Positions 1,581 to 43,785 of a stretch of 60,153 nucleotides of DNA are shown here, piece by piece. Both the position numbers and the translations under genes were made by a program. Below the pieces are notes generated by a model. It saw nothing but the letters and a program-made list of their open reading frames with translations, was not told the DNA's origin and did not search any database. How positions within the stretch are numbered: position 1 is the stretch's first letter; each line of letters opens with the position of its first letter. The stretch is taken from the NCBI RefSeq assembly GCF_036702645.1, contig NZ_JAUBUO010000016.1, forward strand, positions 92,186 to 152,338, read 5' to 3'. The stretch comes from Microcoleus sp. Aus8_D1. GTDB taxonomy: Bacteria; Cyanobacteriota; Cyanobacteriia; Cyanobacteriales; Microcoleaceae.

Positions 1581-2327
1581 AGTTAAAAAATCCTAGTTTT
1601 AATTCTTTAGTTTCAATTCCTTCTAGGAATTTACGCCTTTTTGTTTTGAAGGAAGTGTGTTGAAGGAAGTGATGGCCTACCTCTAGTAGAGATGCACAGC
1701 GGATGAAAACCTATATTTTTTACACCCTTACCGTCCCGCTTCCGTCATTTGACCAAATTATCTGCTTCTTGTCAAGCGCTAGCAACTTCTCACCAATATT
1801 TTTAAGTTGGCGATCGCCCTCTATAGAACAACCTGACCCCAAAAATCGATACCGTGCCACGTACAAGCGTCGTGAGCCGCCCAAAATTTGAGATCCGAGT
1901 TCCTGCTCCCAAATTCACGGAGCTGCAAGAAGTAAATCTCAAATCGTTCTCCTCTAGCGTGACTCTCCTCTAGCGCTCGCTAAACGTCTCGCCGAACGTC
2001 TCACGCCGAAGTCTCAAATCTCAAATCGAAAAATGGAAAAATGGAAAATCGACTGACTGGGCTGGGGGTGGAGGACGGATGCTGGCGATCGGGAATATTC
2101 CCTACCGTTCAACAGCTTTTTGTACAGTAACAGAGAGAAAAGTTTTTTCCTGGGAGGGCGTCTTGGAGCAACAGGGGATAATCAAGATAGCATAAATACA
2201 ATGGCTATGTCAACCCATAGCCGAGAAAAAATTAAATTGTATCTAAGTCTCTAAATGACTATAAATGACTGTAGATTGAATGAAGTTTTATAATACAACA
2301 AAAGTCAATCTTTTGCCGATAGGTTTT

Positions 2328-4142
2328 ATGACAAACGTTCCTGTATCTCGCATTCGTAATTTTTCGATTATTGCTCACATCGACCACGGAAAATCCACTT
2401 TGGCCGATCGCCTGTTGCAGGCGACTGGAACTGTGCAAGCACGGGAGATGAAGGAGCAGTTTTTAGACAATATGGATATCGAACGCGAACGTGGCATTAC
2501 GATCAAGCTGCAAGCGGCTCGGATGAATTACACTGCCAAGGACGGTCAGGAGTACGTGCTGAACCTGATCGACACTCCCGGACACGTTGACTTCTCCTAC
2601 GAGGTTTCGCGATCGCTCGCTGCTTGCGAAGGGGCGCTGCTGGTGGTAGACGCATCTCAAGGCGTGGAAGCACAAACCTTGGCAAATGTCTACCTTGCCT
2701 TGGGAAACAATTTGGAAATTATTCCGGTTCTAAATAAAATTGACCTACCGGGAGCGGAACCGGAACGGGTAAAAGGGGAAATTGAAGAAATTATCGGTCT
2801 GGACTGTAGCGGGGCGATTGAGGCTTCGGCTAAGGAAGGAATTGGTATTGATGAGATTTTGGAGGCGATCGTCGAATTGGTGCCGCCGCCGCAGGATACT
2901 GTTGACAAACCGCTGCGGGCGCTAATTTTTGACAGTTATTACGATGCTTATCGCGGGGTAATTGTGTATTTCCGGGTGATGGACGGAAGTGTTAAAAAGG
3001 GCGATCGGGTGTTGTTGATGGTTTCGGGGAAGGAATATGTCATTGATGAATTGGGCATCCTGTCACCGACACAAGTACAAGTAGATGAATTGCACGCGGG
3101 GGAAGTTGGTTATCTAGGCGCGGCAATTAAGGCGGTAGCTGATGCTCGCGTCGGGGATACGATTACTTTGGTCAAAAAGCCTGCACCAGAGCCTTGGCCT
3201 GGTTATACGGAGGCTAAGCCGATGGTTTTTTGTGGCTTATTCCCGATCGATGCCGACCAATTTCCCGACTTGCGGGAAGCTTTGGAAAAACTGGAACTCA
3301 ACGATGCGGCGCTTTCCTACGAACCGGAAACTTCTAGCGCGATGGGATTTGGTTTCCGCTGCGGTTTCTTGGGTTTGCTGCACATGGAAATTGTGCAGGA
3401 AAGACTGGAAAGAGAATACAATTTGGATTTGATTGTTACGGCTCCTTCTGTGGTTTATCAAGTCACAACAATCAAGGGAGAAGTGTTAACAATTGACAAT
3501 CCGAGCCACTTGCCAGATCCTCAGTATCGGGAGAAGATTGAGGAACCTTACGTGCGGGTAGAAATGCTGTCGCCGGAAACTTATGTGGGCGCGCTGATGG
3601 AGTTATCTCAAAGTCGGCGGGGCATTTTTATGGATATGAAGTATCTGAGTCAGGGGCGGACTACCTTGGTTTACGAGTTACCTTTGGCGGAGGTGGTGAC
3701 GGACTTTTTCGATCAGATGAAATCGCGATCGCGCGGTTATGCGAGTATGGAGTATCACATCATCGGTTATCGCGAAAATCCGTTGGTGAAATTGGACATT
3801 TTAATTAATGGCGATCCGGTTGATGCTTTGGCGATGATCGTGCACCGGGATAAGGCTTACAATGTGGGGCGCGGCTTGACGGAGAAACTGAAGGAGTTGA
3901 TTCCCCGCCACCAGTTTAAGGTGCCGATTCAAGCGACTATTGGCGCTAAGGTGATTGCTTCGGAACATATTCCGGCTTTGCGGAAAGATGTGTTGGCGAA
4001 GTGTTACGGCGGCGATATTTCGCGGAAGAAGAAGTTGCTACAAAAGCAGGCGAAGGGTAAGAAGCGGATGAAGTCTGTTGGTACTGTGGATGTGCCGCAG
4101 GAGGCTTTTATGGCTGTGCTGAAGCTCGATCGCGATTCGTAA
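2328..4142 (+). CDS. lepA: Elongation factor 4 (LepA), translational GTPase
   Basis: [31 protein letters not shown]1 motif, [13 protein letters not shown], and the LepA-specific C-terminal domain. Start moved from the ORF-track 2280 to Met17, the canonical LepA N-terminus. Confidence 0.95.
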
Positions 4143-4212
4143 TTTGTGTGTTGGGGCGATCGCACTTTTTACCGAAGGGCGATCGCACTTTCAGCTAATA
4201 AATGATTGCAGA

Positions 4213-4515
4213 TTACTCATCATCATCCTCATCATCCGGGCCAAATAAGTCGCTAGCCTTACTACCCAAAAGTCCAAAAATCGCACCCACGCCCATATTC
4301 CAAGTCGTATTGCAACTCTCAAAAATCCGAACTTGTTGGGGAGATAGACTATCCTTAGTACCAAGCGATACACACACGCCTCCAGAAAGTAAGGTAAAAC
4401 AAATCACGCTGAAGAAGACTTGCTGGAAAACTGGGGGAATTTGAGGAGGAGTATTTTTAGGACTCATTTGAGTAGATTTGGGTTTAGCGGGTGTGATATT
4501 AGATTTAGTTTTCAC
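4213..4515 (-). CDS. Hypothetical small protein with one predicted TM helix and an acidic C-terminal tail (DDEDDDE)
   Basis: 100-aa ORF with hydrophobic stretch VFFSVICFTLLSGGVCVSLG. No recognisable family; could be spurious. Confidence 0.25.
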   Translation of the reverse strand: MKTKSNITPAKPKSTQMSPKNTPPQIPPVFQQVFFSVICFTLLSGGVCVSLGTKDSLSPQQVRIFESCNTTWNMGVGAIFGLLGSKASDLFGPDDEDDDE

Positions 4516-4672
4516 CGTGGCTACCTTTGATTGAATATGTTTTAATCTTAAAGACTCAAAGCTGGAAAGTCAGCCTGTGTATAGGTTTCAGTTACTATGA
4601 GTTTGGTATGCGTTTGGGATGTGTTTGGTTGGCGATGCTCGCTATAATACTTAAAAGGTTTGTAATTTGGCT

Positions 4673-5728
4673 ATGGCGTCGCTCAAAGCATCCGAGGCAG
4701 GAATCGAAAAAATAAATATACGTTTTACAGACAAAGGCTGGAGTCGCCAAGACTTAGCCGATCGAGTTGTAATAGGGGAGGGCAAAAAGTCCAAGGAAGG
4801 GATTGATATTCAAGTTATTCATAAGTTTTTTACCCAGAAGAGTGTCAGCAGCCAGTATTTTGTGGGAATTTGCAAGGCTTTAGAGTTGGATTGGCAGGAA
4901 ATTCGAGAACCCAATGGAACGCCACCGCCCCCAATACTACCAAATCACAATCCCATCCCAGAAATAGAACAGCCAAATATCAAATACGATAATCCCTTTC
5001 GTCCGACAAGTGGCAAAATAGACGATCGCCGCTTTTTCTTTGGCAGACAGCGGGAAATTCGGCGGGTATTCGAGACTCTGAATAGTGGCAGTAGTGTAGC
5101 AATTGTTGGCGAAAGAGCGATCGGCAAAAGTTCTCTGCTACAAGCCATTTACCAACAAGCACCAAATCAACTCCGTCCTCCGCGCCAACCCATTTACCTC
5201 AACTTGCAAGATGTTTATGATGAAGATGATTTTTACTGTGCTTTGTGCAGCGAAGTCAATATAGATATAGCGAAGGGATATTTACTAAAACGGGCTTTAG
5301 AATCGCACCGACTGCTGTTGCTTTTAGATGAAGTTGAGAAAATGAACTGGAATGGATTTACTAACCAAATACGCGGTCAATTGCGGGGTTTAGCGGAGGG
5401 AACAAACGCACCTTTGCGTCTAGTTGTCGCCGCCTGCACCTCTCTCGATACGCTGTTTCCTGACAGTCAAGACCAAAATATGACATCTCCTTTCAAAGGA
5501 ATTTGCATTGAGGAAACTCTGAAGCGATGGGATGATGAAATCAGTCGCAAATTTATTGCAAGCCGCCTCCAGGCTGATTGGTTAACACCTGTTGCCCAAC
5601 CCGTGAGTTTTACAGAGGATGAAATTGCGAGTTTAATTGCTGAAAGTGGTGGCTATCCTCAGAAATTGATGCAGTTGTGCTATCAAACTTACGATCGCTA
5701 TCTTTGCGATCGATCCAATATTTTGTAG
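4673..5728 (+). CDS. XRE-type HTH domain fused to a minimal AAA-like/STAND-type P-loop NTPase
   Basis: N-terminus KGWSRQDLADRVV is a typical HTH_XRE helix, followed by a Pro-rich linker. FFGRQREIRRVFETL then Walker A GERAIGKSSLL and Walker B LLLLDEVEK. First in-frame ATG is at 4673 (the ORF track starts at TTG 4667). TATAAT at 4643-4648. Confidence 0.7.
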   Translation: MASLKASEAGIEKINIRFTDKGWSRQDLADRVVIGEGKKSKEGIDIQVIHKFFTQKSVSSQYFVGICKALELDWQEIREPNGTPPPPILPNHNPIPEIEQPNIKYDNPFRPTSGKIDDRRFFFGRQREIRRVFETLNSGSSVAIVGERAIGKSSLLQAIYQQAPNQLRPPRQPIYLNLQDVYDEDDFYCALCSEVNIDIAKGYLLKRALESHRLLLLLDEVEKMNWNGFTNQIRGQLRGLAEGTNAPLRLVVAACTSLDTLFPDSQDQNMTSPFKGICIEETLKRWDDEISRKFIASRLQADWLTPVAQPVSFTEDEIASLIAESGGYPQKLMQLCYQTYDRYLCDRSNIL

Positions 5729-6125
5729 GGGCAGGTTCACCAACAATAATTGTCGCCAACCAACAATTCTGATAAACCTGCCCCCACCCAACGACAAATC
5801 CCAATCTACCAATAACCAAATATCCAGTAGGGGCAGGTTCACCAACAATAATTGCCACCAACCAACAAATCTGATAAACCTGCCCCCACCCAACGATAAA
5901 TCCCAATCTACCAATAACCAAATATCCAGTAGGGGCAGGTTCGCCAACAATAATTGCCACCAACCGACAATTATCATAAACCTGCCCCCACCCAACGACA
6001 AATCCCAATCTACCAATAACCAAATATCCAGTAGGGGCAGGTTCGCCAACAATAATTGCCATTAACCAACAAATCTCATAAACCTGCCCTCACTCACCCA
6101 ACGACAAATCCCTATCTACCTTCTT
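5726..6125. repeat. Tandem array of four ~102-bp direct repeats. Each unit carries a 10-bp-stem hairpin, GGGGCAGGTT-(N38)-AACCTGCCCC
   Basis: Units start at 5726, 5828, 5930 and 6032 with a few substitutions. Lies in the intergenic region between the two NTPase genes. Open frames on the minus strand (5610..6062, 5633..6052) are repeat artefacts. Confidence 0.9.
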
Positions 6126-6162
6126 TTCAAACACTGAACGGTATTCGAGCATAATACATAGG

Positions 6163-6226
6163 CCGGGGCGGGTTTTTGAAATTGTCGATTTTTGGCAATG
6201 ATTGTTGGTGAACCCGCCCCTACGGA
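6163..6226. repeat. Inverted, diverged copy of the 102-bp unit hairpin, GGGGCGGGTT...AACCCGCCCC
   Basis: Reverse complement taggggcgggttcaccaacaatcattg matches the unit start taggggcaggttcaccaacaataattg. Confidence 0.7.
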
Positions 6227-6328
6227 AATAACGCTCGATCGACCTGAAATAATCAGTTACAAAATCAGTTGCCGAACTTCCTTCTGCTATATAACCAATC
6301 CTAAATTTTATTTATCTCCACCTATTTT

Positions 6329-8992
6329 ATGAATCAAAACCATCACCCCGTTCCTCGATTAGATTTAGCTCCCAAACTGAAGCGTCCTCTTTCTTTGTCG
6401 AATCCTTTAGATTACCTGCGATTGTTATATTGGGTGTTTTTCTTTCCTCAAGCTGTGCGGTGGTATGAGTTTATTTTTGGGGGTGAATCTAATTTAAAAG
6501 ATGCCAAAACGTGGCGAGAAAGGTGGGATTGGTTGCGTCAAAATCCAGTCCAGCGTCAGTTAATTTTGCAAGCTTTGATATTAATACTTGCTATCACTCT
6601 AGGTTTTAATATATTTTTTTTAGGCCTCAGTATTCCTATTAATTGGTGGGTTGTAGTGTTAGGCGTAGGGTTCCCTGTTGCCTATGGCGTGGGGTTGGCC
6701 GTGGAGTTCGGCGTAGCATCCGGTGTGGCATTCGGCATGGCGTTCGGCATGGTTTTGGGCATGACCTACGGCGCGGCCTCCGGCATAGCGTCCAGCGTGG
6801 CGTCCGGCCTGGGGTTAGGCCTGGCATTAGGTATTAGCTTGGGCGTGAGGTCAGGTGTGGGAGTGGGCGTGGCGTCTGCTGTAGGGATGGGTGCGGGGTT
6901 GGGTGTGGGTTTGGGCGTATTGTCCGGTGTGGGTTCCGGCGTGAGGTTTGGCGTGGCGTTGGGCTTGGGGTTAGGATTGGCGTCAGTCGTGGCGATCGCA
7001 CGTCCTGAAAATTGGCTGTTCGCTTTACCGTCTATCCTACTCCAGCGCCAACAGCAAAATAGACAATTTCCTCACATTACCCCGCTTCCCCTTCCTTACC
7101 TGTCTGCTCAAATAGCTAATTGGCTGAGGCGGGATTGGGAAACAGGATTGCACAACATTGACGAACTACTAAAATTTACTCTTCAGTTTATCCCGGTTAT
7201 TAAAGCTGTAAATTGCGTACTAGCAGAGACACCAAAAGACCAAATCATCTATCGCCTCGCTCAATTATCAGAAAATCCTTATGATTGGAATTTAGTGCGT
7301 TTTGCCTCAGCTTCTCTTAGTCAAAAAATGAAGTTAGAAGCAGTGGCAGGTTTTTTCAGCTTCATACCTTGGAAACAACAAATTCAAGCTCGTTTTCAAA
7401 CAGAAATTCGTTTAAATACTCCTGCCCGTGCCTCTGCCGCTGGTTTCTGGTATCTCCACGAACAGGAACCAGACAAAGCTACAGCAGCTTTTGCTGTAGT
7501 CCGAGATTTGCTTTATGGAGAGGAGATGTTTGCCTTAGCGCAAATTCTCACAAGTTGTCACCAAACAGCAGAACTAGCCGAGATTGCCGCCTTGAAACTG
7601 CCACCTTCCCCAAATCCACCTCTGCTTCGCGGGACTACTTGGGAAGCAATTGCCTCTCTGCGTCGGGTAATAGTCGATGTTCAACTTATCCAGAATAGTG
7701 TATCTCTTTTTGCCCGTTCTCTTGCCAGCAACCGAGCATTAGGTCAGCTTAAAACTATCTTAAATCAAGCTGGAGTTATACCTATATCTGAACGAAATTT
7801 AATTGTCAAAATAGTCAAAAAATGGTTAGAGATATTACTGCAATTCACAGTTGAAATAGGAGATATTTCAATTACTCAACCTGTCAGCAACCCCTATACC
7901 ATAGGCGATCCAGTCCAAGGCAATCAGTTTGTCGGCCGCGAAGACATCATCAGAGAGCTAGAGGAGTTGTGGGTACAGGGCGATCGCCTGCAATCTGTTG
8001 CTCTCTACGGTCATCGGCGGATGGGGAAAACTTCAATTTTGTTGAATGCTAGCAACTGCCTCGGAGCAAAGGTACAGGTAGCCTATGTCAATGTGTCGCT
8101 GGTGGCAGATTGTTCTCAGGGAGTCGGCGAATTGCTCATATTCGTTACCGATGCCATTGCCAAAACAGTCAAAATTGCACCTCCGGGCGATCGCGATTTA
8201 CTCGATTTGCCCTATATCACTTTTCGACGCTATATCGAACAAGTCATCGGAAATATAGAAGGCGGATTGATCGTTGCTTTAGACGAGTTTGAAAAAATCG
8301 AAGAATTGATCGACGCTGGGAAAATCGATCGCGATTTTATCGGTTTCTTGCGCGGCATGGTGCAAATGAGTTCTAAAATAGCCTTTGCGTTTGCCGGATT
8401 GCACACCTTAGACGAAATGACCGAGGATTATTTCAATCCTTTTTTTGCTAGCATTATCCCCATCCGAGTCGGTTTCCTGAGTTTGGGTGCAACTCGCCAA
8501 GTTTTAGCCAATCCCGATGATGATTTCCTCCTCGACTACAAACCGGAAGCACTCGATCGCATTTACGAACTAACAGGCGGCCAACCCTATCTCACGCAAT
8601 TAATCGGATTTCTATTAGTCCGCCACTACAACGACCAAGTATTTGAAATGGGACACCCCCGCGATCCAATGTTTAGCATAGAAGATGTGGAAACAGTCAT
8701 CAATGACCCGGATTTTTTCAGCAGAGGTCGCTACTATTTTACAGGAATTTGGGGTCAAGCAATGGAAGGTGCACCGGGACAACAGCAGATTTTAAGAGCA
8801 CTAGCACCTCACTTAGACGGAATGAATTTCGACAGGCTGAGTGCAGAAATAGGGATGGATAGAAAAAGTTTAGAGGAAGCATTAAAAACCCTGGAACGTC
8901 ACGATGTGGTTCAACAAAGTGATGGTTGCTACTGTATTAGTGTGGAACTATTTCGCCGTTGGGTTCAGATGTCATTGGGAGGGAACGGGTAA
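6329..8992 (+). CDS. Large membrane-anchored AAA-like/STAND-type NTPase. N-terminus has Gly/Ala/Val-rich small-residue TM helices; the C-terminal half carries an ORC/Cdc6-like P-loop ATPase
   Basis: Residues ~75-230 are hydrophobic GxxxG-rich repeats (GVGFPVAYGVGLAVEFGVASGVAFGMAFGMVLG...). Later come FVGREDIIRELEELW, Walker A GHRRMGKTSILLN and Walker B LIVALDEFEKI, typical of the cyanobacterial AAA-like domain family. Confidence 0.75.
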   Translation: MNQNHHPVPRLDLAPKLKRPLSLSNPLDYLRLLYWVFFFPQAVRWYEFIFGGESNLKDAKTWRERWDWLRQNPVQRQLILQALILILAITLGFNIFFLGLSIPINWWVVVLGVGFPVAYGVGLAVEFGVASGVAFGMAFGMVLGMTYGAASGIASSVASGLGLGLALGISLGVRSGVGVGVASAVGMGAGLGVGLGVLSGVGSGVRFGVALGLGLGLASVVAIARPENWLFALPSILLQRQQQNRQFPHITPLPLPYLSAQIANWLRRDWETGLHNIDELLKFTLQFIPVIKAVNCVLAETPKDQIIYRLAQLSENPYDWNLVRFASASLSQKMKLEAVAGFFSFIPWKQQIQARFQTEIRLNTPARASAAGFWYLHEQEPDKATAAFAVVRDLLYGEEMFALAQILTSCHQTAELAEIAALKLPPSPNPPLLRGTTWEAIASLRRVIVDVQLIQNSVSLFARSLASNRALGQLKTILNQAGVIPISERNLIVKIVKKWLEILLQFTVEIGDISITQPVSNPYTIGDPVQGNQFVGREDIIRELEELWVQGDRLQSVALYGHRRMGKTSILLNASNCLGAKVQVAYVNVSLVADCSQGVGELLIFVTDAIAKTVKIAPPGDRDLLDLPYITFRRYIEQVIGNIEGGLIVALDEFEKIEELIDAGKIDRDFIGFLRGMVQMSSKIAFAFAGLHTLDEMTEDYFNPFFASIIPIRVGFLSLGATRQVLANPDDDFLLDYKPEALDRIYELTGGQPYLTQLIGFLLVRHYNDQVFEMGHPRDPMFSIEDVETVINDPDFFSRGRYYFTGIWGQAMEGAPGQQQILRALAPHLDGMNFDRLSAEIGMDRKSLEEALKTLERHDVVQQSDGCYCISVELFRRWVQMSLGGNG

Positions 8993-9013
8993 ATAGTTAT
9001 GTTGGAAGCATCT

Positions 9014-9250
9014 CAAGCTCTGTAGGGTGTGGATCCATTGACAATTCTCAAGAAAAAAGCGACCATCTAATAGCGACGCACCTCTTTTTTTCAAGCTCTG
9101 TAGGGTGTGGATCCATTGACAATTCTCAAGAAAAAAGCGACCATCTAATAGCGACGCACCTCTTTTTTTCAAGCTCTGTAGGGTGTGGATCCATTGACAA
9201 TTCTCAAGAAAAAAGCGACCATCTAATAGCGACGCACCTGTTCTTTTCAA
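9014..9250. repeat. Tandem array of three 78-bp direct repeats, each ending in a T-run
   Basis: caagctctgtagggtgtggatccattgacaattctcaagaaaaaagcgaccatctaatagcgacgcacctcttttttt occurs at 9014, 9092 and 9170. ORFs 8959..9300 and 8972..9274 are artefacts of this array. Confidence 0.9.
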
Positions 9251-9382
9251 GAATCCAGGACACAAACCCAACATTTTTGTGGTATCAAGCTTTTTTATAA
9301 ACCGATTGGTAGGGTGAAGCGACTAAAGTCTGGAAGTGCGATCGCACTTCCACAGTGCTAATACCATTTCCGCCCCTTCCCT

Positions 9383-37667: not shown

Positions 37668-37700
37668 AAAAACCTGTTTCTTCAAGAAACCGGGTTTTGA
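37668..37700. terminator. Bidirectional hairpin between convergent genes
   Basis: aaaaaaaacctgtttcttcaagaaaccgggtttt has an imperfect ~11-bp stem flanked by A-run and T-run. Confidence 0.4.
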
Positions 37701-43423: not shown

Positions 43424-43745
43424 AGGGTGTGTCGCCTGCGAAGAATCCCTAACTAAATATCGAAAATCTCAAAGCTCCGCACCTGTCAACTCGCCCGATC
43501 GCCAATAAAGTCGATCGCCTACAATCAAGTATTCGGGTGTGTCGCCACAAAAAATCCTTAGCCAAACATGAAAAATCTCAAAGCGACGCACCTGTGAACT
43601 CGCCCGATCGCCAATAAAGTCGATCGCCTACAATCAAGTATTCGGGTGTGTCGCCACAGAAAATCCTTAGCCAAACATCGAAAATCTCAAAGCGACGCAC
43701 CTGTCAACTCGCCCGATCGCCACTAAAGTCGATCGCCTACAATCA
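43424..43745. repeat. Tandem array of ~3 copies of a 109-bp unit immediately upstream of the NACHT gene
   Basis: acctgt(c/g)aactcgcccgatcgccaataaagtcgatcgcctacaatcaag... recurs at 43481, 43590 and 43699. ORF 43320..43508 and the 43648 start extension are repeat artefacts. Confidence 0.85.
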
Positions 43746-43785
43746 AACTAACCCGCTTCGAGCAGCGCATCAGGAGAACCGTCAA

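What the first reader, a model, noticed from the sequence alone, without database searches (positions are those of the whole stretch)
5726..6226. Four 102-bp tandem repeats each forming a 10-bp-stem hairpin, plus an inverted diverged copy, in the leader of the TM-NTPase gene
The units are near-identical, including inter-hairpin sequence, so this is not CRISPR-like. Substitutions cluster in the loop. The inverted fifth copy at 6163-6226 has compensatory stem changes (GGGGCGGGTT/AACCCGCCCC versus GGGGCAGGTT/AACCTGCCCC), which points to selection on structure. The array could be a structured leader or sRNA array, repeated protein-binding sites for the adjacent HTH-NTPase, or a MITE-like repeat family.
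Basis: seen in the sequence. Interest (0 to 1): 0.5.

Follow-up and report, generated by a model that had tools for sequence, protein, structure and literature searches.

The report
Cluster of cyanobacterial REP hairpin repeats
The four tandem hairpin units and the inverted fifth copy are real, but they are a local cluster of a REP-type selfish hairpin repeat found across many filamentous cyanobacterial genomes alongside its own RAYT transposase, not a control element specific to the neighbouring gene.

Summary
Window 5725-6120 holds 3.8 tandem copies of a 102-bp unit, each with a GTAG-tagged hairpin (GGGGCAGGTT / AACCTGCCCC). An inverted copy at 6165-6223 carries the compensated stem GGGGCGGGTT / AACCCGCCCC.

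The window comes from a Microcoleus species. About 96% of the copies are extragenic. They often occur as inverted pairs or tandem clusters.

In Calothrix, Rhizonema and Microcoleus, the same hairpins flank a REP-associated tyrosine transposase (RAYT) gene. In the first two they also sit in frame inside it. The RAYT shows the NHxH, WQ and YIxNNP motifs of published TnpA_REP subclass 2.4.

The orthologous spacers in other Microcoleus genomes differ. Some hold 2-3 copies with a different 88-bp unit, some hold another hairpin family, and one holds none. The array is therefore not a conserved leader.

No promoter, terminator or Rfam signal was found. Verdict: a REP cluster, an ordinary member of a known kind. 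Any effect on the neighbouring mRNAs is inferred, not shown.

The parts
5725..5826 (+). REP unit 1. GTAG tag, hairpin 5728-5784 (GGGGCAGGTT / AACCTGCCCC), tail CACCCAACGACAAATCCCAATCTACC and spacer. The TAG of the tag (5726-5728) is the stop codon of the upstream ORF.
5827..5928 (+). REP unit 2 (hairpin 5830-5886).
5929..6030 (+). REP unit 3 (hairpin 5932-5988).
6031..6120 (+). REP unit 4, truncated (hairpin 6034-6090). It has a terminal stem mismatch, a 4-nt insertion and the tail 6095-6120. The array ends here.
6150..6223 (-). Inverted REP of the common G/C subfamily. The hairpin is at 6165-6220, with GTAG at 6223-6220 on the minus strand and the tail GGCCTATGTATTATG at 6164-6150. Together with unit 4 it forms a pair with both GTAG tags facing outward and a 74-nt gap, the commonest pair type in the family.
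4667..5728 (+). Upstream gene, a STAND/AAA NTPase (nSTAND1, AAA_22). It is a neighbour, not part of the element.
6329..8992 (+). Downstream gene, an 887-aa protein with AAA_16/AAA_35-like NTPase and HTH matches, all below Pfam's cut-offs. It is 100% identical to a Microcoleus protein. The roughly 45 nt before its ATG are conserved in most orthologues whatever repeats lie upstream.

Best explanation
The array is a cluster of REP elements (repetitive extragenic palindromes). They belong to a GTAG-tagged hairpin family of about 60 nt that is dispersed through the genomes of filamentous cyanobacteria. In those genomes a REP-associated tyrosine transposase (RAYT, also called TnpA_REP) accompanies the family.

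Shown here:
- The hairpin with its 5' GTAG is a dispersed, almost always extragenic repeat.
- It occurs as singletons, inverted pairs and tandem clusters.
- In three genera the same hairpins flank a RAYT gene, and in two of them they are also inserted in frame inside it.
- The orthologous spacer in related Microcoleus genomes varies in presence, family, unit length and copy number.

Inferred from what is established for E. coli TnpA_REP and IS200/IS605 enzymes:
- The RAYT recognises the hairpin and its GTAG tag as single-stranded DNA, cleaves there, and so seeds new copies.
- An ancestral outward-facing inverted pair sat in this spacer. Its left member, together with about 40 bp of flank, was then amplified in tandem by slippage or unequal recombination. 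This gave 102-bp units here and 88-bp units in a sister lineage.

Any effect on the neighbouring genes is a by-product and untested. When transcribed, GC-rich REP hairpins can protect upstream mRNA 3' ends or damp read-through.
For: Dispersal:
- By my count the loci come from about 79 assemblies. About 75 of these are cyanobacterial (Microcoleus, Oscillatoria, Coleofasciculus, Symploca, Calothrix, Nostoc, Planktothrix, Pseudanabaena), with up to 6 loci per assembly.

REP features:
- 239 of 250 hairpins carry GTAG directly before the stem on one or both strands.
- Only 9 of 219 lie inside long ORFs.
- Neighbouring copies form 27 pairs with the tags facing outward, 14 inward-facing pairs and 20 direct pairs. 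Outward pairs often have gaps of 74-78 nt, and the window's unit 4 and inverted copy have a 74-nt gap.
- Arrays like the window's occur elsewhere: L095 has 4 tandem copies, L133 has 3 tandem copies and separately 2 direct plus 1 inverted, and L042 has 14 copies.

RAYT link:
- tblastn with published RAYTs against the fetched loci hit only L081 and L078.
- The L081 ORF scores 81.9 bits on NCBIfam REP_Tyr_transpos (cut-off 80) and 42 bits on Pfam Y1_Tnp.
- Both genes are flanked by the hairpins and contain an in-frame copy.
- The Microcoleus homologue P0180 was fetched independently of the hairpin. At least 11 hairpins lie within 6.6 kb around it, including the same CACCCAACGACAAATC tail as the window unit.
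- The motifs NH[IV]H, WQ and YIINNP, together with REP inserted in the gene, match TnpA_REP subclass 2.4, which is reported as abundant in cyanobacteria (PMC6006769).
- GTAG-tagged REPs, and clusters of singletons reiterated in tandem with flanking DNA, are described for cyanobacteria (PMC3733652).

Not locus-specific:
- L121 and L130-132 have 2-3 or more copies with an 88-bp unit, plus the inverted copy.
- L123, L124 and L129 have another hairpin family, and L128 has none.
- M. vaginatus carries the family elsewhere in its genome (L086) but not at this site (L123).

Stem: the sequence is nearly invariant, and position 6 is the only covarying position.
Against: - The copy number in the window's own genome is unknown. 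Within the 60 kb, all five copies sit at this one locus and no RAYT gene is present.
- The element is longer than classical REPs: 57-63 nt with a 37-nt interior that pairs little better than shuffled sequence.
- Bertels et al. found Group 4 RAYTs only moderately associated with abundant flanking 16-mers (PMC5581495).
- Stem invariance is partly built in by the search pattern, although bystander copies were collected with up to 2 substitutions per arm.
- No transposition, cleavage or transcription was observed.
- The same layout (tandem A/T-form copies followed by one inverted G/C-form copy) persists in two Microcoleus lineages whose flanking proteins are only 75-82% identical. That could also reflect retained function.
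Confidence: 0.86

Rival explanations
1. Structured 5' leader or cis-regulatory RNA of the downstream TM-NTPase gene. The hairpins would fold in the mRNA and control its transcription or translation.
For: - The array lies 105-600 nt upstream of the ATG on the coding strand.
- The region folds far better than shuffles, with z = -9.5.
- A compensated stem change exists.
- A similar layout is kept in L121 and L130-132.
Against: - Orthologues with 77-85% identical proteins (L123, L124, L129) carry a different hairpin family in the spacer, and L128 has none.
- The only upstream block shared by most orthologues is the last 45 nt or so before the ATG, downstream of all repeats.
- The same hairpin occurs at over 100 unrelated loci.
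- There is no Rfam hit and no terminator-like site.
Confidence: 0.05
2. Tandem array of small-RNA genes, each unit with its own promoter and terminator. The model is the NsiR1 array of Anabaena (recalled from my own knowledge).
For: - The array has tandem near-identical units of about 100 bp, each with a hairpin.
- The minus-strand RNA folds strongly: -256 kcal/mol, z = -12.6.
- Units 1-3 form nearly full-length hairpins on the strand complementary to the GTAG strand.
Against: - No terminator-like site was found, and promoter-like hits (4 against 2.1 +/- 1.6 in shuffles) are not periodic with the units.
- No T-run follows any hairpin on either strand.
- Rfam gave nothing at gathering scores.
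- Across the family, the extra stability of the complementary strand is barely above interior-shuffled controls: -25.4 against -24.3 kcal/mol.
- Most family members are singletons or inverted pairs, not arrays.
Confidence: 0.03
3. Repeated operator sites bound by the adjacent HTH-NTPase or by the upstream STAND NTPase.
For: - There are four or five identical GC-rich inverted repeats next to a gene with an HTH_IclR-like match (20.2 bits, just under Pfam's cut-off of 22).
- The stem sequence is strongly conserved, as expected for a protein-binding site.
Against: - The sites occur genome-wide next to unrelated genes.
- Close orthologues of the NTPase lack them.
- The protein that consistently co-occurs with the sites is the RAYT.
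Confidence: 0.02
4. Classical MITE. The terminal inverted repeats GTAGGGGCGGGTT / AACCCGCCCCTAC would be mobilised in trans by a DDE transposase as double-stranded DNA.
For: - The element is short, non-coding and dispersed, with inverted ends.
- 24 of 250 copies carry GTAG on both ends.
Against: - No DDE transposase with these ends was seen in the fetched loci, though I did not search for one.
- Most copies are asymmetric, with GTAG at one end only (215 of 250).
- The upstream flank shows only a preferred T and nothing recognisable as a target-site duplication in the profile.
- The transposase found next to and around the copies is a HUH-Y1 RAYT.
Confidence: 0.04

Closest known systems
TnpA_REP (RAYT) subclass 2.4 / Bertels Group 4 with its long GT[AG]G-tagged REPs in cyanobacteria (Quentin et al. 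2018, PMC6006769; Bertels et al. 2017, PMC5581495)
   Same: - The associated transposases show NH[IV]H, WQ and YIINNP motifs and are 165-214 aa long.
- REP copies are inserted in frame inside the transposase gene.
- The hosts are cyanobacteria.
- The REPs carry a 5' GTAG or GTGG next to a GC-rich basal stem.
   Different: - I could not see the published REP consensus sequences, so I cannot show that this exact family (GTAGGGGCGGGTT...) has been described.
- The 37-nt, weakly paired interior is larger than the loop or second-stem rule those authors used to predict REPs.
E. coli REP/BIME elements and Pseudomonas REPINs with Group 2/3 RAYTs (PMC3116915, PMC3337134; E. coli details from my own knowledge)
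   Same: - GTAG tag.
- Extragenic location.
- Inverted pairs and larger clusters.
- A RAYT gene flanked by the repeats.
- Persistence at orthologous sites.
   Different: - These hairpins are about twice as long.
- The stem is invariant across several cyanobacterial orders rather than being species-specific.
- Tandem direct arrays with co-amplified flank are prominent.
- The RAYT belongs to a different subclass.
GTAG-12, GTAG-15 and GTAG-16 REP families of Anabaena, Nostoc and Cyanothece (Di Nocera et al. 2013, PMC3733652)
   Same: - They are GTAG-tagged palindromic repeats in cyanobacteria.
- GTAG-15 has unusually large loops.
[quoted passage not shown]
   Different: - Those families are described as 20-40 bp elements with loops of 9-15 nt, whereas this one has about 37 nt between the arms.
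- Their consensus sequences are in a figure that I could not read, so identity is untested.
NsiR1 tandem sRNA array upstream of hetF in Anabaena (recalled from my own knowledge)
   Same: It is a tandem array of near-identical units of about 100 bp, each containing a hairpin, in a cyanobacterial intergenic region.
   Different: - NsiR1 units each carry a promoter and a terminator and give a discrete sRNA.
- Here there is no promoter or terminator signal and no Rfam match, and the hairpin is a genome-wide dispersed repeat.
Nezha and other bacterial MITEs
   Same: They are small, non-coding, dispersed elements with inverted ends that can fold when transcribed.
   Different: MITEs are defined by terminal inverted repeats shared with a parent IS and by target-site duplications. 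Neither was found here, and the linked enzyme is a HUH tyrosine transposase.

Membership tests
REP / RAYT-associated repeats | Short imperfect palindrome able to form a GC-rich stem-loop | tested here: met
   The 10-bp stem is perfect in four of the five window copies; unit 4 has one terminal mismatch. In 242 distinct family hairpins, 2285 of 2420 stem cells are the consensus pair.
REP / RAYT-associated repeats | Conserved GT[AG]G tetranucleotide 0-2 nt 5' of the stem | tested here: met
   All five window copies have GTAG, and units 1-3 also have GTGG on the other strand. 239 of 250 family hairpins carry GTAG on one or both strands. The tag was part of the retrieval pattern for one copy per locus.
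REP / RAYT-associated repeats | Many dispersed copies per genome | tested here: inconclusive
The window's own genome could not be counted, and the 60-kb window has copies at this locus only.
REP / RAYT-associated repeats | Extragenic location | tested here: met
   210 of 219 hairpins lie outside ORFs of at least 120 aa, using a heuristic gene call. The window array lies between two genes.
REP / RAYT-associated repeats | A RAYT gene flanked by the same repeats (REPtron) | tested here: met
   This is seen at L081 (Calothrix), L078 (Rhizonema) and L133 (Microcoleus). It could not be shown for the strain the window comes from.
REP / RAYT-associated repeats | The transposase has the HUH and catalytic-Tyr motifs of RAYTs | tested here: met
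   NF047646 REP_Tyr_transpos scores 81.9 bits against a cut-off of 80 for L081, but 64.9 bits (below cut-off) for L078. Pfam Y1_Tnp scores are above cut-off for both. The motifs NHIH/NHVH, WQ and YIINNP can be read directly in the sequences.
REP / RAYT-associated repeats | Occurrence as inverted pairs (REPIN- or BIME-like) and clusters | tested here: met
   There are 41 inverted against 20 direct neighbour pairs. The window pair with its 74-nt gap falls in the common 74-78 nt class.
REP / RAYT-associated repeats | Size of 20-40 bp with a small loop or a bulged second stem | tested here: not met
   The elements are 57-63 nt with about 37 nt between the arms. Interior pairing is barely better than in shuffles. 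This is a long variant, so the filing rests on the other features.
REP / RAYT-associated repeats | RAYT binds and cleaves the single-stranded GTAG hairpin; copies are mobile | not testable with these tools
   The only indirect evidence is presence/absence and copy-number differences at orthologous sites.
MITE | Terminal inverted repeats shared with an autonomous IS, plus target-site duplications | tested here: inconclusive
   No conserved duplicated flank appears in the profile of 181 copies. Most copies are asymmetric. Only about 1 Mb of sequence was available, with no matching IS noticed, and I did not search for one.
Tandem sRNA gene array (NsiR1-like) | Promoter and intrinsic terminator in every unit; a match to the described family | tested here: not met
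   There are 0 terminator-like sites, the promoter-like hits are not periodic, and there is no Rfam match.
Gene-specific leader / riboswitch-like element | Conserved together with the downstream gene in orthologous loci | tested here: not met
   The array is absent or replaced by another repeat family in L123, L124, L128 and L129. Only the proximal 45 nt or so are conserved, and only in most orthologues.
CRISPR array | Conserved repeats separated by unique spacers | tested here: not met
   The inter-hairpin spacers are near-identical.

The most novel reading that the evidence does not exclude
The REP cluster may have been co-opted as an RNA-level insulator or attenuator between the two STAND-type NTPase genes. 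Three observations leave this open. The layout of several sense-oriented A/T-form hairpins followed by one inverted G/C-form hairpin is kept in two Microcoleus lineages whose flanking proteins are only 75-82% identical. Across the family, the GTAG strand is the sense strand twice as often as the antisense strand (61 against 31). And the first hairpin starts at the stop codon of the upstream gene. Under this reading the hairpins would set the 3' end and stability of the upstream mRNA and limit read-through into the downstream gene. More broadly, a single 13-nt GTAG stem that is invariant from Pseudanabaena to Nostocales could mark an unusually old and strictly co-evolving RAYT-REP partnership.
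Probability: 0.1. Interest if true: 0.4.

Novelty: new member of a known kind. Interest (0 to 1): 0.2.

Why it matters
In itself this matters little. It removes a candidate regulatory RNA or operator array from the list and files it as a selfish REP cluster. It does have some practical uses:

- It supplies a sharp, searchable signature: T-GTAGGGGCGGGTT, about 37 nt, then TAAACCCGCCCC.
- Genome annotators and RNA-motif hunters should mask this signature, because the family generates strong false-positive signals of structure and covariation.
- The arrays break short-read assemblies. Runs of N sit inside the arrays in L130, L131 and L133.
- The family could serve as a strain-typing marker, or as a model for RAYT-REP co-evolution outside Proteobacteria.

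Tried and rejected
- **Rfam.** A search of the whole window at gathering scores gave nothing. A permissive search of 5600-6400 gave only a chance plant-miRNA hit, 26 bits against a gathering score of 65.
- **Literature search by sequence.** A full-text search for GGGGCGGGTT / AACCCGCCCC found only unrelated papers.
- **Exact-sequence look-ups.** Look-ups of both flanking window proteins and of P0001 found no contig. The window's own genome therefore could not be fetched, and orthologues were used instead.
- **Plasmid collection.** A BLAST of the hairpin gave one irrelevant 26-nt match.
- **Extended G-U hairpin on the non-GTAG strand.** This would have pointed to an RNA role. That strand is more stable in 164 of 194 members. 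Interior-shuffled controls are almost as stable (-24.3 against -25.4 kcal/mol), so the effect is mostly base composition.
- **Promoter and terminator scan.** No signal above shuffles.
- **Papers not available or uninformative.** Elhai et al. 2008 (small dispersed repeats) is not held. Nunvar 2010 does not mention cyanobacteria.
- **CRISPR.** Rejected because the spacers between hairpins are near-identical.
Full report
**Observation**

Tandem Repeats Finder reports 5725-6120 with period 102, 3.8 copies, 93% matches and score 658. The repeat finder puts three 176-nt copies in register at 102-bp spacing. It also finds four copies of a 26-nt tail, CACCCAACGACAAATCCCAATCTACC.

Every unit starts with GTAG followed by GGGCAGGTT, 37 nt, and AACCTGCCCC. 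An inverted copy at 6165-6223 has the arms GGGGCGGGTT / AACCCGCCCC, so both sides of one stem pair are changed. The motif is strongly over-represented: 15 matches against 2.95 expected, ten of them at this locus.

Among units 1-3, 7 of 37 interior columns vary, against 1 of 42 spacer columns and none of 23 tag or arm columns.

There are no further copies elsewhere in the 60-kb window.

**Setting**

The window has 42 GCGATCGC sites and 42.7% G+C. Its 887-aa protein is 100% identical to a protein of unclassified Microcoleus.

The array fills most of a 600-nt spacer between two same-strand genes. The upstream gene (4667-5728) is a STAND/AAA NTPase, and its TAG stop lies inside the first GTAG. The downstream gene is the 887-aa protein, with weak (below cut-off) NTPase and HTH matches, starting at 6329.

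**The hairpin is a dispersed family**

By my count, these come from about 79 assemblies. All but a handful are filamentous cyanobacteria: Microcoleus, Tychonema, Oscillatoria, Coleofasciculus, Symploca, Planktothrix, Calothrix, Nostoc, Anabaena and Pseudanabaena. Up to six loci come from one assembly. The few non-cyanobacterial hits are composites of two short hairpins and are not the same element.

The G/C stem is the common form and the A/T stem of the window's four tandem units is the rarer one. Among the pattern matches there are 171 G-C, 10 A-T and 4 mixed. Among 242 distinct hairpins collected with up to two substitutions per arm, position 6 shows 214 G-C, 17 A-T and 11 unpaired or wobble cells. 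The other nine stem positions are almost invariant, and only one other compensated cell was seen.

The family profile is T-GTAGGGGCGGGTT(T/C), a variable interior rich in A and C, then TAAACCCGCCCC.

On the GTAG strand the interior has twice as much C as G. As a result the complementary strand folds better as RNA in 164 of 194 members. Interior-shuffled controls fold almost as well (-24.3 against -25.4 kcal/mol), so this is mostly base composition.

Only 9 of 219 hairpins lie inside long ORFs. In co-directional spacers the GTAG strand is the sense strand 61 times and the antisense strand 31 times.

Neighbouring copies are more often inverted (41) than direct (20). The commonest class has the two GTAG tags facing outward, frequently with a 74-78 nt gap. 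The window's unit 4 and inverted copy have exactly this arrangement, with a 74-nt gap.

Clusters like the window's recur elsewhere:
- four tandem copies at 96-bp spacing in L095;
- three at 105 bp in L133;
- two direct plus one inverted in L133;
- fourteen alternating copies in L042.

**Link to a transposase**

I took RAYT sequences from the supplement of Di Nocera et al. 2013 and ran tblastn against the roughly 1 Mb of fetched loci. This hit two places only, L081 (Calothrix anomala) and L078 (Rhizonema).

Both are ORFs of 183-197 aa that match Pfam Y1_Tnp. The L081 ORF scores 81.9 bits on NCBIfam REP_Tyr_transpos against a cut-off of 80. The L078 ORF scores 64.9 bits, below the cut-off.

In L081 the gene has hairpins on both sides and one inside the reading frame, encoding GAGSQRLSNINDDINEPAPT. 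An insertion-free relative (P0134, 165 aa) and a relative with two insertions (P0123, 214 aa) show that these are insertions.

Thousands of homologues exist, many named "REP element-mobilizing transposase RayT" by their source.

The Microcoleus homologue P0180 was fetched through the protein, not through the hairpin. At least eleven hairpins lie within 6.6 kb around it. They include copies with the tail CACCCAACGACAAATC found in the window unit, and a layout of two direct copies plus one inverted copy immediately upstream of its ATG.

The motifs MPNH(I/V)HGI, VWQR and EYIINNP, the protein length, the cyanobacterial hosts and the REP insertions inside the gene all match TnpA_REP subclass 2.4 (Bertels Group 4). 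That subclass is described as abundant in cyanobacteria, with long GT[AG]G-tagged REPs (PMC6006769; PMC5581495).

GTAG-tagged REPs in cyanobacteria, and clusters made of singletons reiterated in tandem with flanking DNA, are described by Di Nocera et al. (PMC3733652).

**Is the array tied to this locus?**

I compared orthologous spacers between the same two genes.

- Two lineages (L121; L130-L132, proteins 75-82% identical) have the same architecture: tandem A/T-form hairpins followed by one inverted G/C-form hairpin. They have two or three copies, an 88-bp unit and a different inter-hairpin spacer. In L130 and L131 assembly gaps sit inside the array.
- Three others (L123 M. vaginatus, L124, L129; 77-85% identical) carry one to three copies of a different hairpin family, AGAAACCGGGTTTTT...AAAAACCCGGTTTCT.
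- L128 has neither family.
- M. vaginatus has the GTAGGGGCGGGTT family elsewhere in its genome (L086).

The only upstream block shared by most orthologues is the last 45 nt or so before the ATG, downstream of all the repeats. The spacer is therefore a landing and amplification site for hairpin repeats, not a conserved leader.

Consensus scans found no terminator-like site and no excess of promoter-like sites. Rfam gave nothing.

**Mechanism**

Shown: the family is dispersed, extragenic, GTAG-tagged and linked to a RAYT, and it is polymorphic at this site.

Inferred from the E. coli TnpA_REP and IS200/IS605 literature (my own knowledge):
- The RAYT recognises the hairpin and its GTAG as single-stranded DNA and cleaves there, which spreads copies.
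- The near-invariant stem sequence, with pairing maintained at the one variable position, fits sequence-specific protein recognition of a folded strand better than a generic RNA helix.
- The most economical history is an ancestral outward-facing inverted pair in this spacer. Its left member, together with about 40 bp of flank, was later amplified by slippage or unequal recombination, independently in two lineages. That would explain units of 102 and 88 bp.
- Effects on expression are possible by analogy with enterobacterial REPs: protection of upstream mRNA 3' ends, reduced read-through, or interference with termination of translation because the first stem begins at the stop codon. None of these was tested.

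**Limits**

- I could not fetch the genome the window comes from, so its copy number and its RAYT are unknown.
- Stem invariance is partly imposed by the search pattern.
- Gene calls in the context analysis are heuristic.
- The published consensus sequences of the cyanobacterial REP families are in figures I could not read. I therefore cannot say whether this exact family has been named.

**Verdict**

This is a real feature, correctly observed. It is an ordinary REP cluster belonging to a RAYT-associated family, and it is of low interest in itself.

Noticed in passing
window 9013-9251 and 43425-43746; L128 6727-7238: A second GTAG-tagged hairpin family, GTAGGGTGTG(G/TCGC), about 40 nt, then (G)CGACGCACC, with a G-T wobble in the stem. 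It also occurs as tandem arrays: 78 bp x 3.1 directly after the stop of the 887-aa gene, and 109 bp x 2.9. Four copies sit in the same position downstream of the orthologue in L128. The NTPase gene is therefore flanked by arrays of two different repeat families.
   Followed up: partly
L123 3885-3960, L124 3820-3935, L129 3665-3950; window 37668-37700: A third hairpin family, AGAAACCGGGTTTTT...AAAAACCCGGTTTCT, occupies the orthologous spacer in M. vaginatus and two other Microcoleus genomes. A short related hairpin is present once in the window.
   Followed up: no
L081 1190-1741 (-), L078 266-859 (+), proteins P0121, P0123, P0134: The RAYT genes themselves carry one or two in-frame copies of the hairpin (peptide GAGS...PAPT), while a close relative has none. 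In both loci the inserted copy has the A/T stem form, as the window's tandem units do. This matches the published peculiarity of TnpA_REP subclass 2.4.
   Followed up: partly
window 5738-5774, 5840-5876, 5942-5978: The hairpin interiors of the tandem units differ at 7 of 37 columns, while the co-amplified 42-nt spacer differs at only 1. Simple tandem duplication would not produce this. It suggests either higher mutability of the extruded loop or gene conversion from other genomic copies. This remains unexplained.
   Followed up: no
loci L001-L120: The 13-nt GTAGGGGCGGGTT is identical in genomes from Pseudanabaena, Leptolyngbyaceae, Oscillatoriales and Nostocales. REP families are usually specific to a species or genus. 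Part of this invariance is imposed by the search pattern.
   Followed up: partly
window 2280-9300 and orthologous loci L121-L132: The neighbourhood downstream of lepA is a variable island. It holds two STAND-type NTPase genes, surrounded in different strains by ParDE, Fic, PIN, MqsA and HTH genes. This looks like a defence or toxin-antitoxin hotspot where repeats accumulate.
   Followed up: no
L130 3360-3625, L131 3492-3525, L133 3730-3828: Runs of N (scaffold gaps) lie inside the hairpin arrays in three independent assemblies. These clusters break short-read assemblies, so array lengths in draft genomes are unreliable.
   Followed up: no
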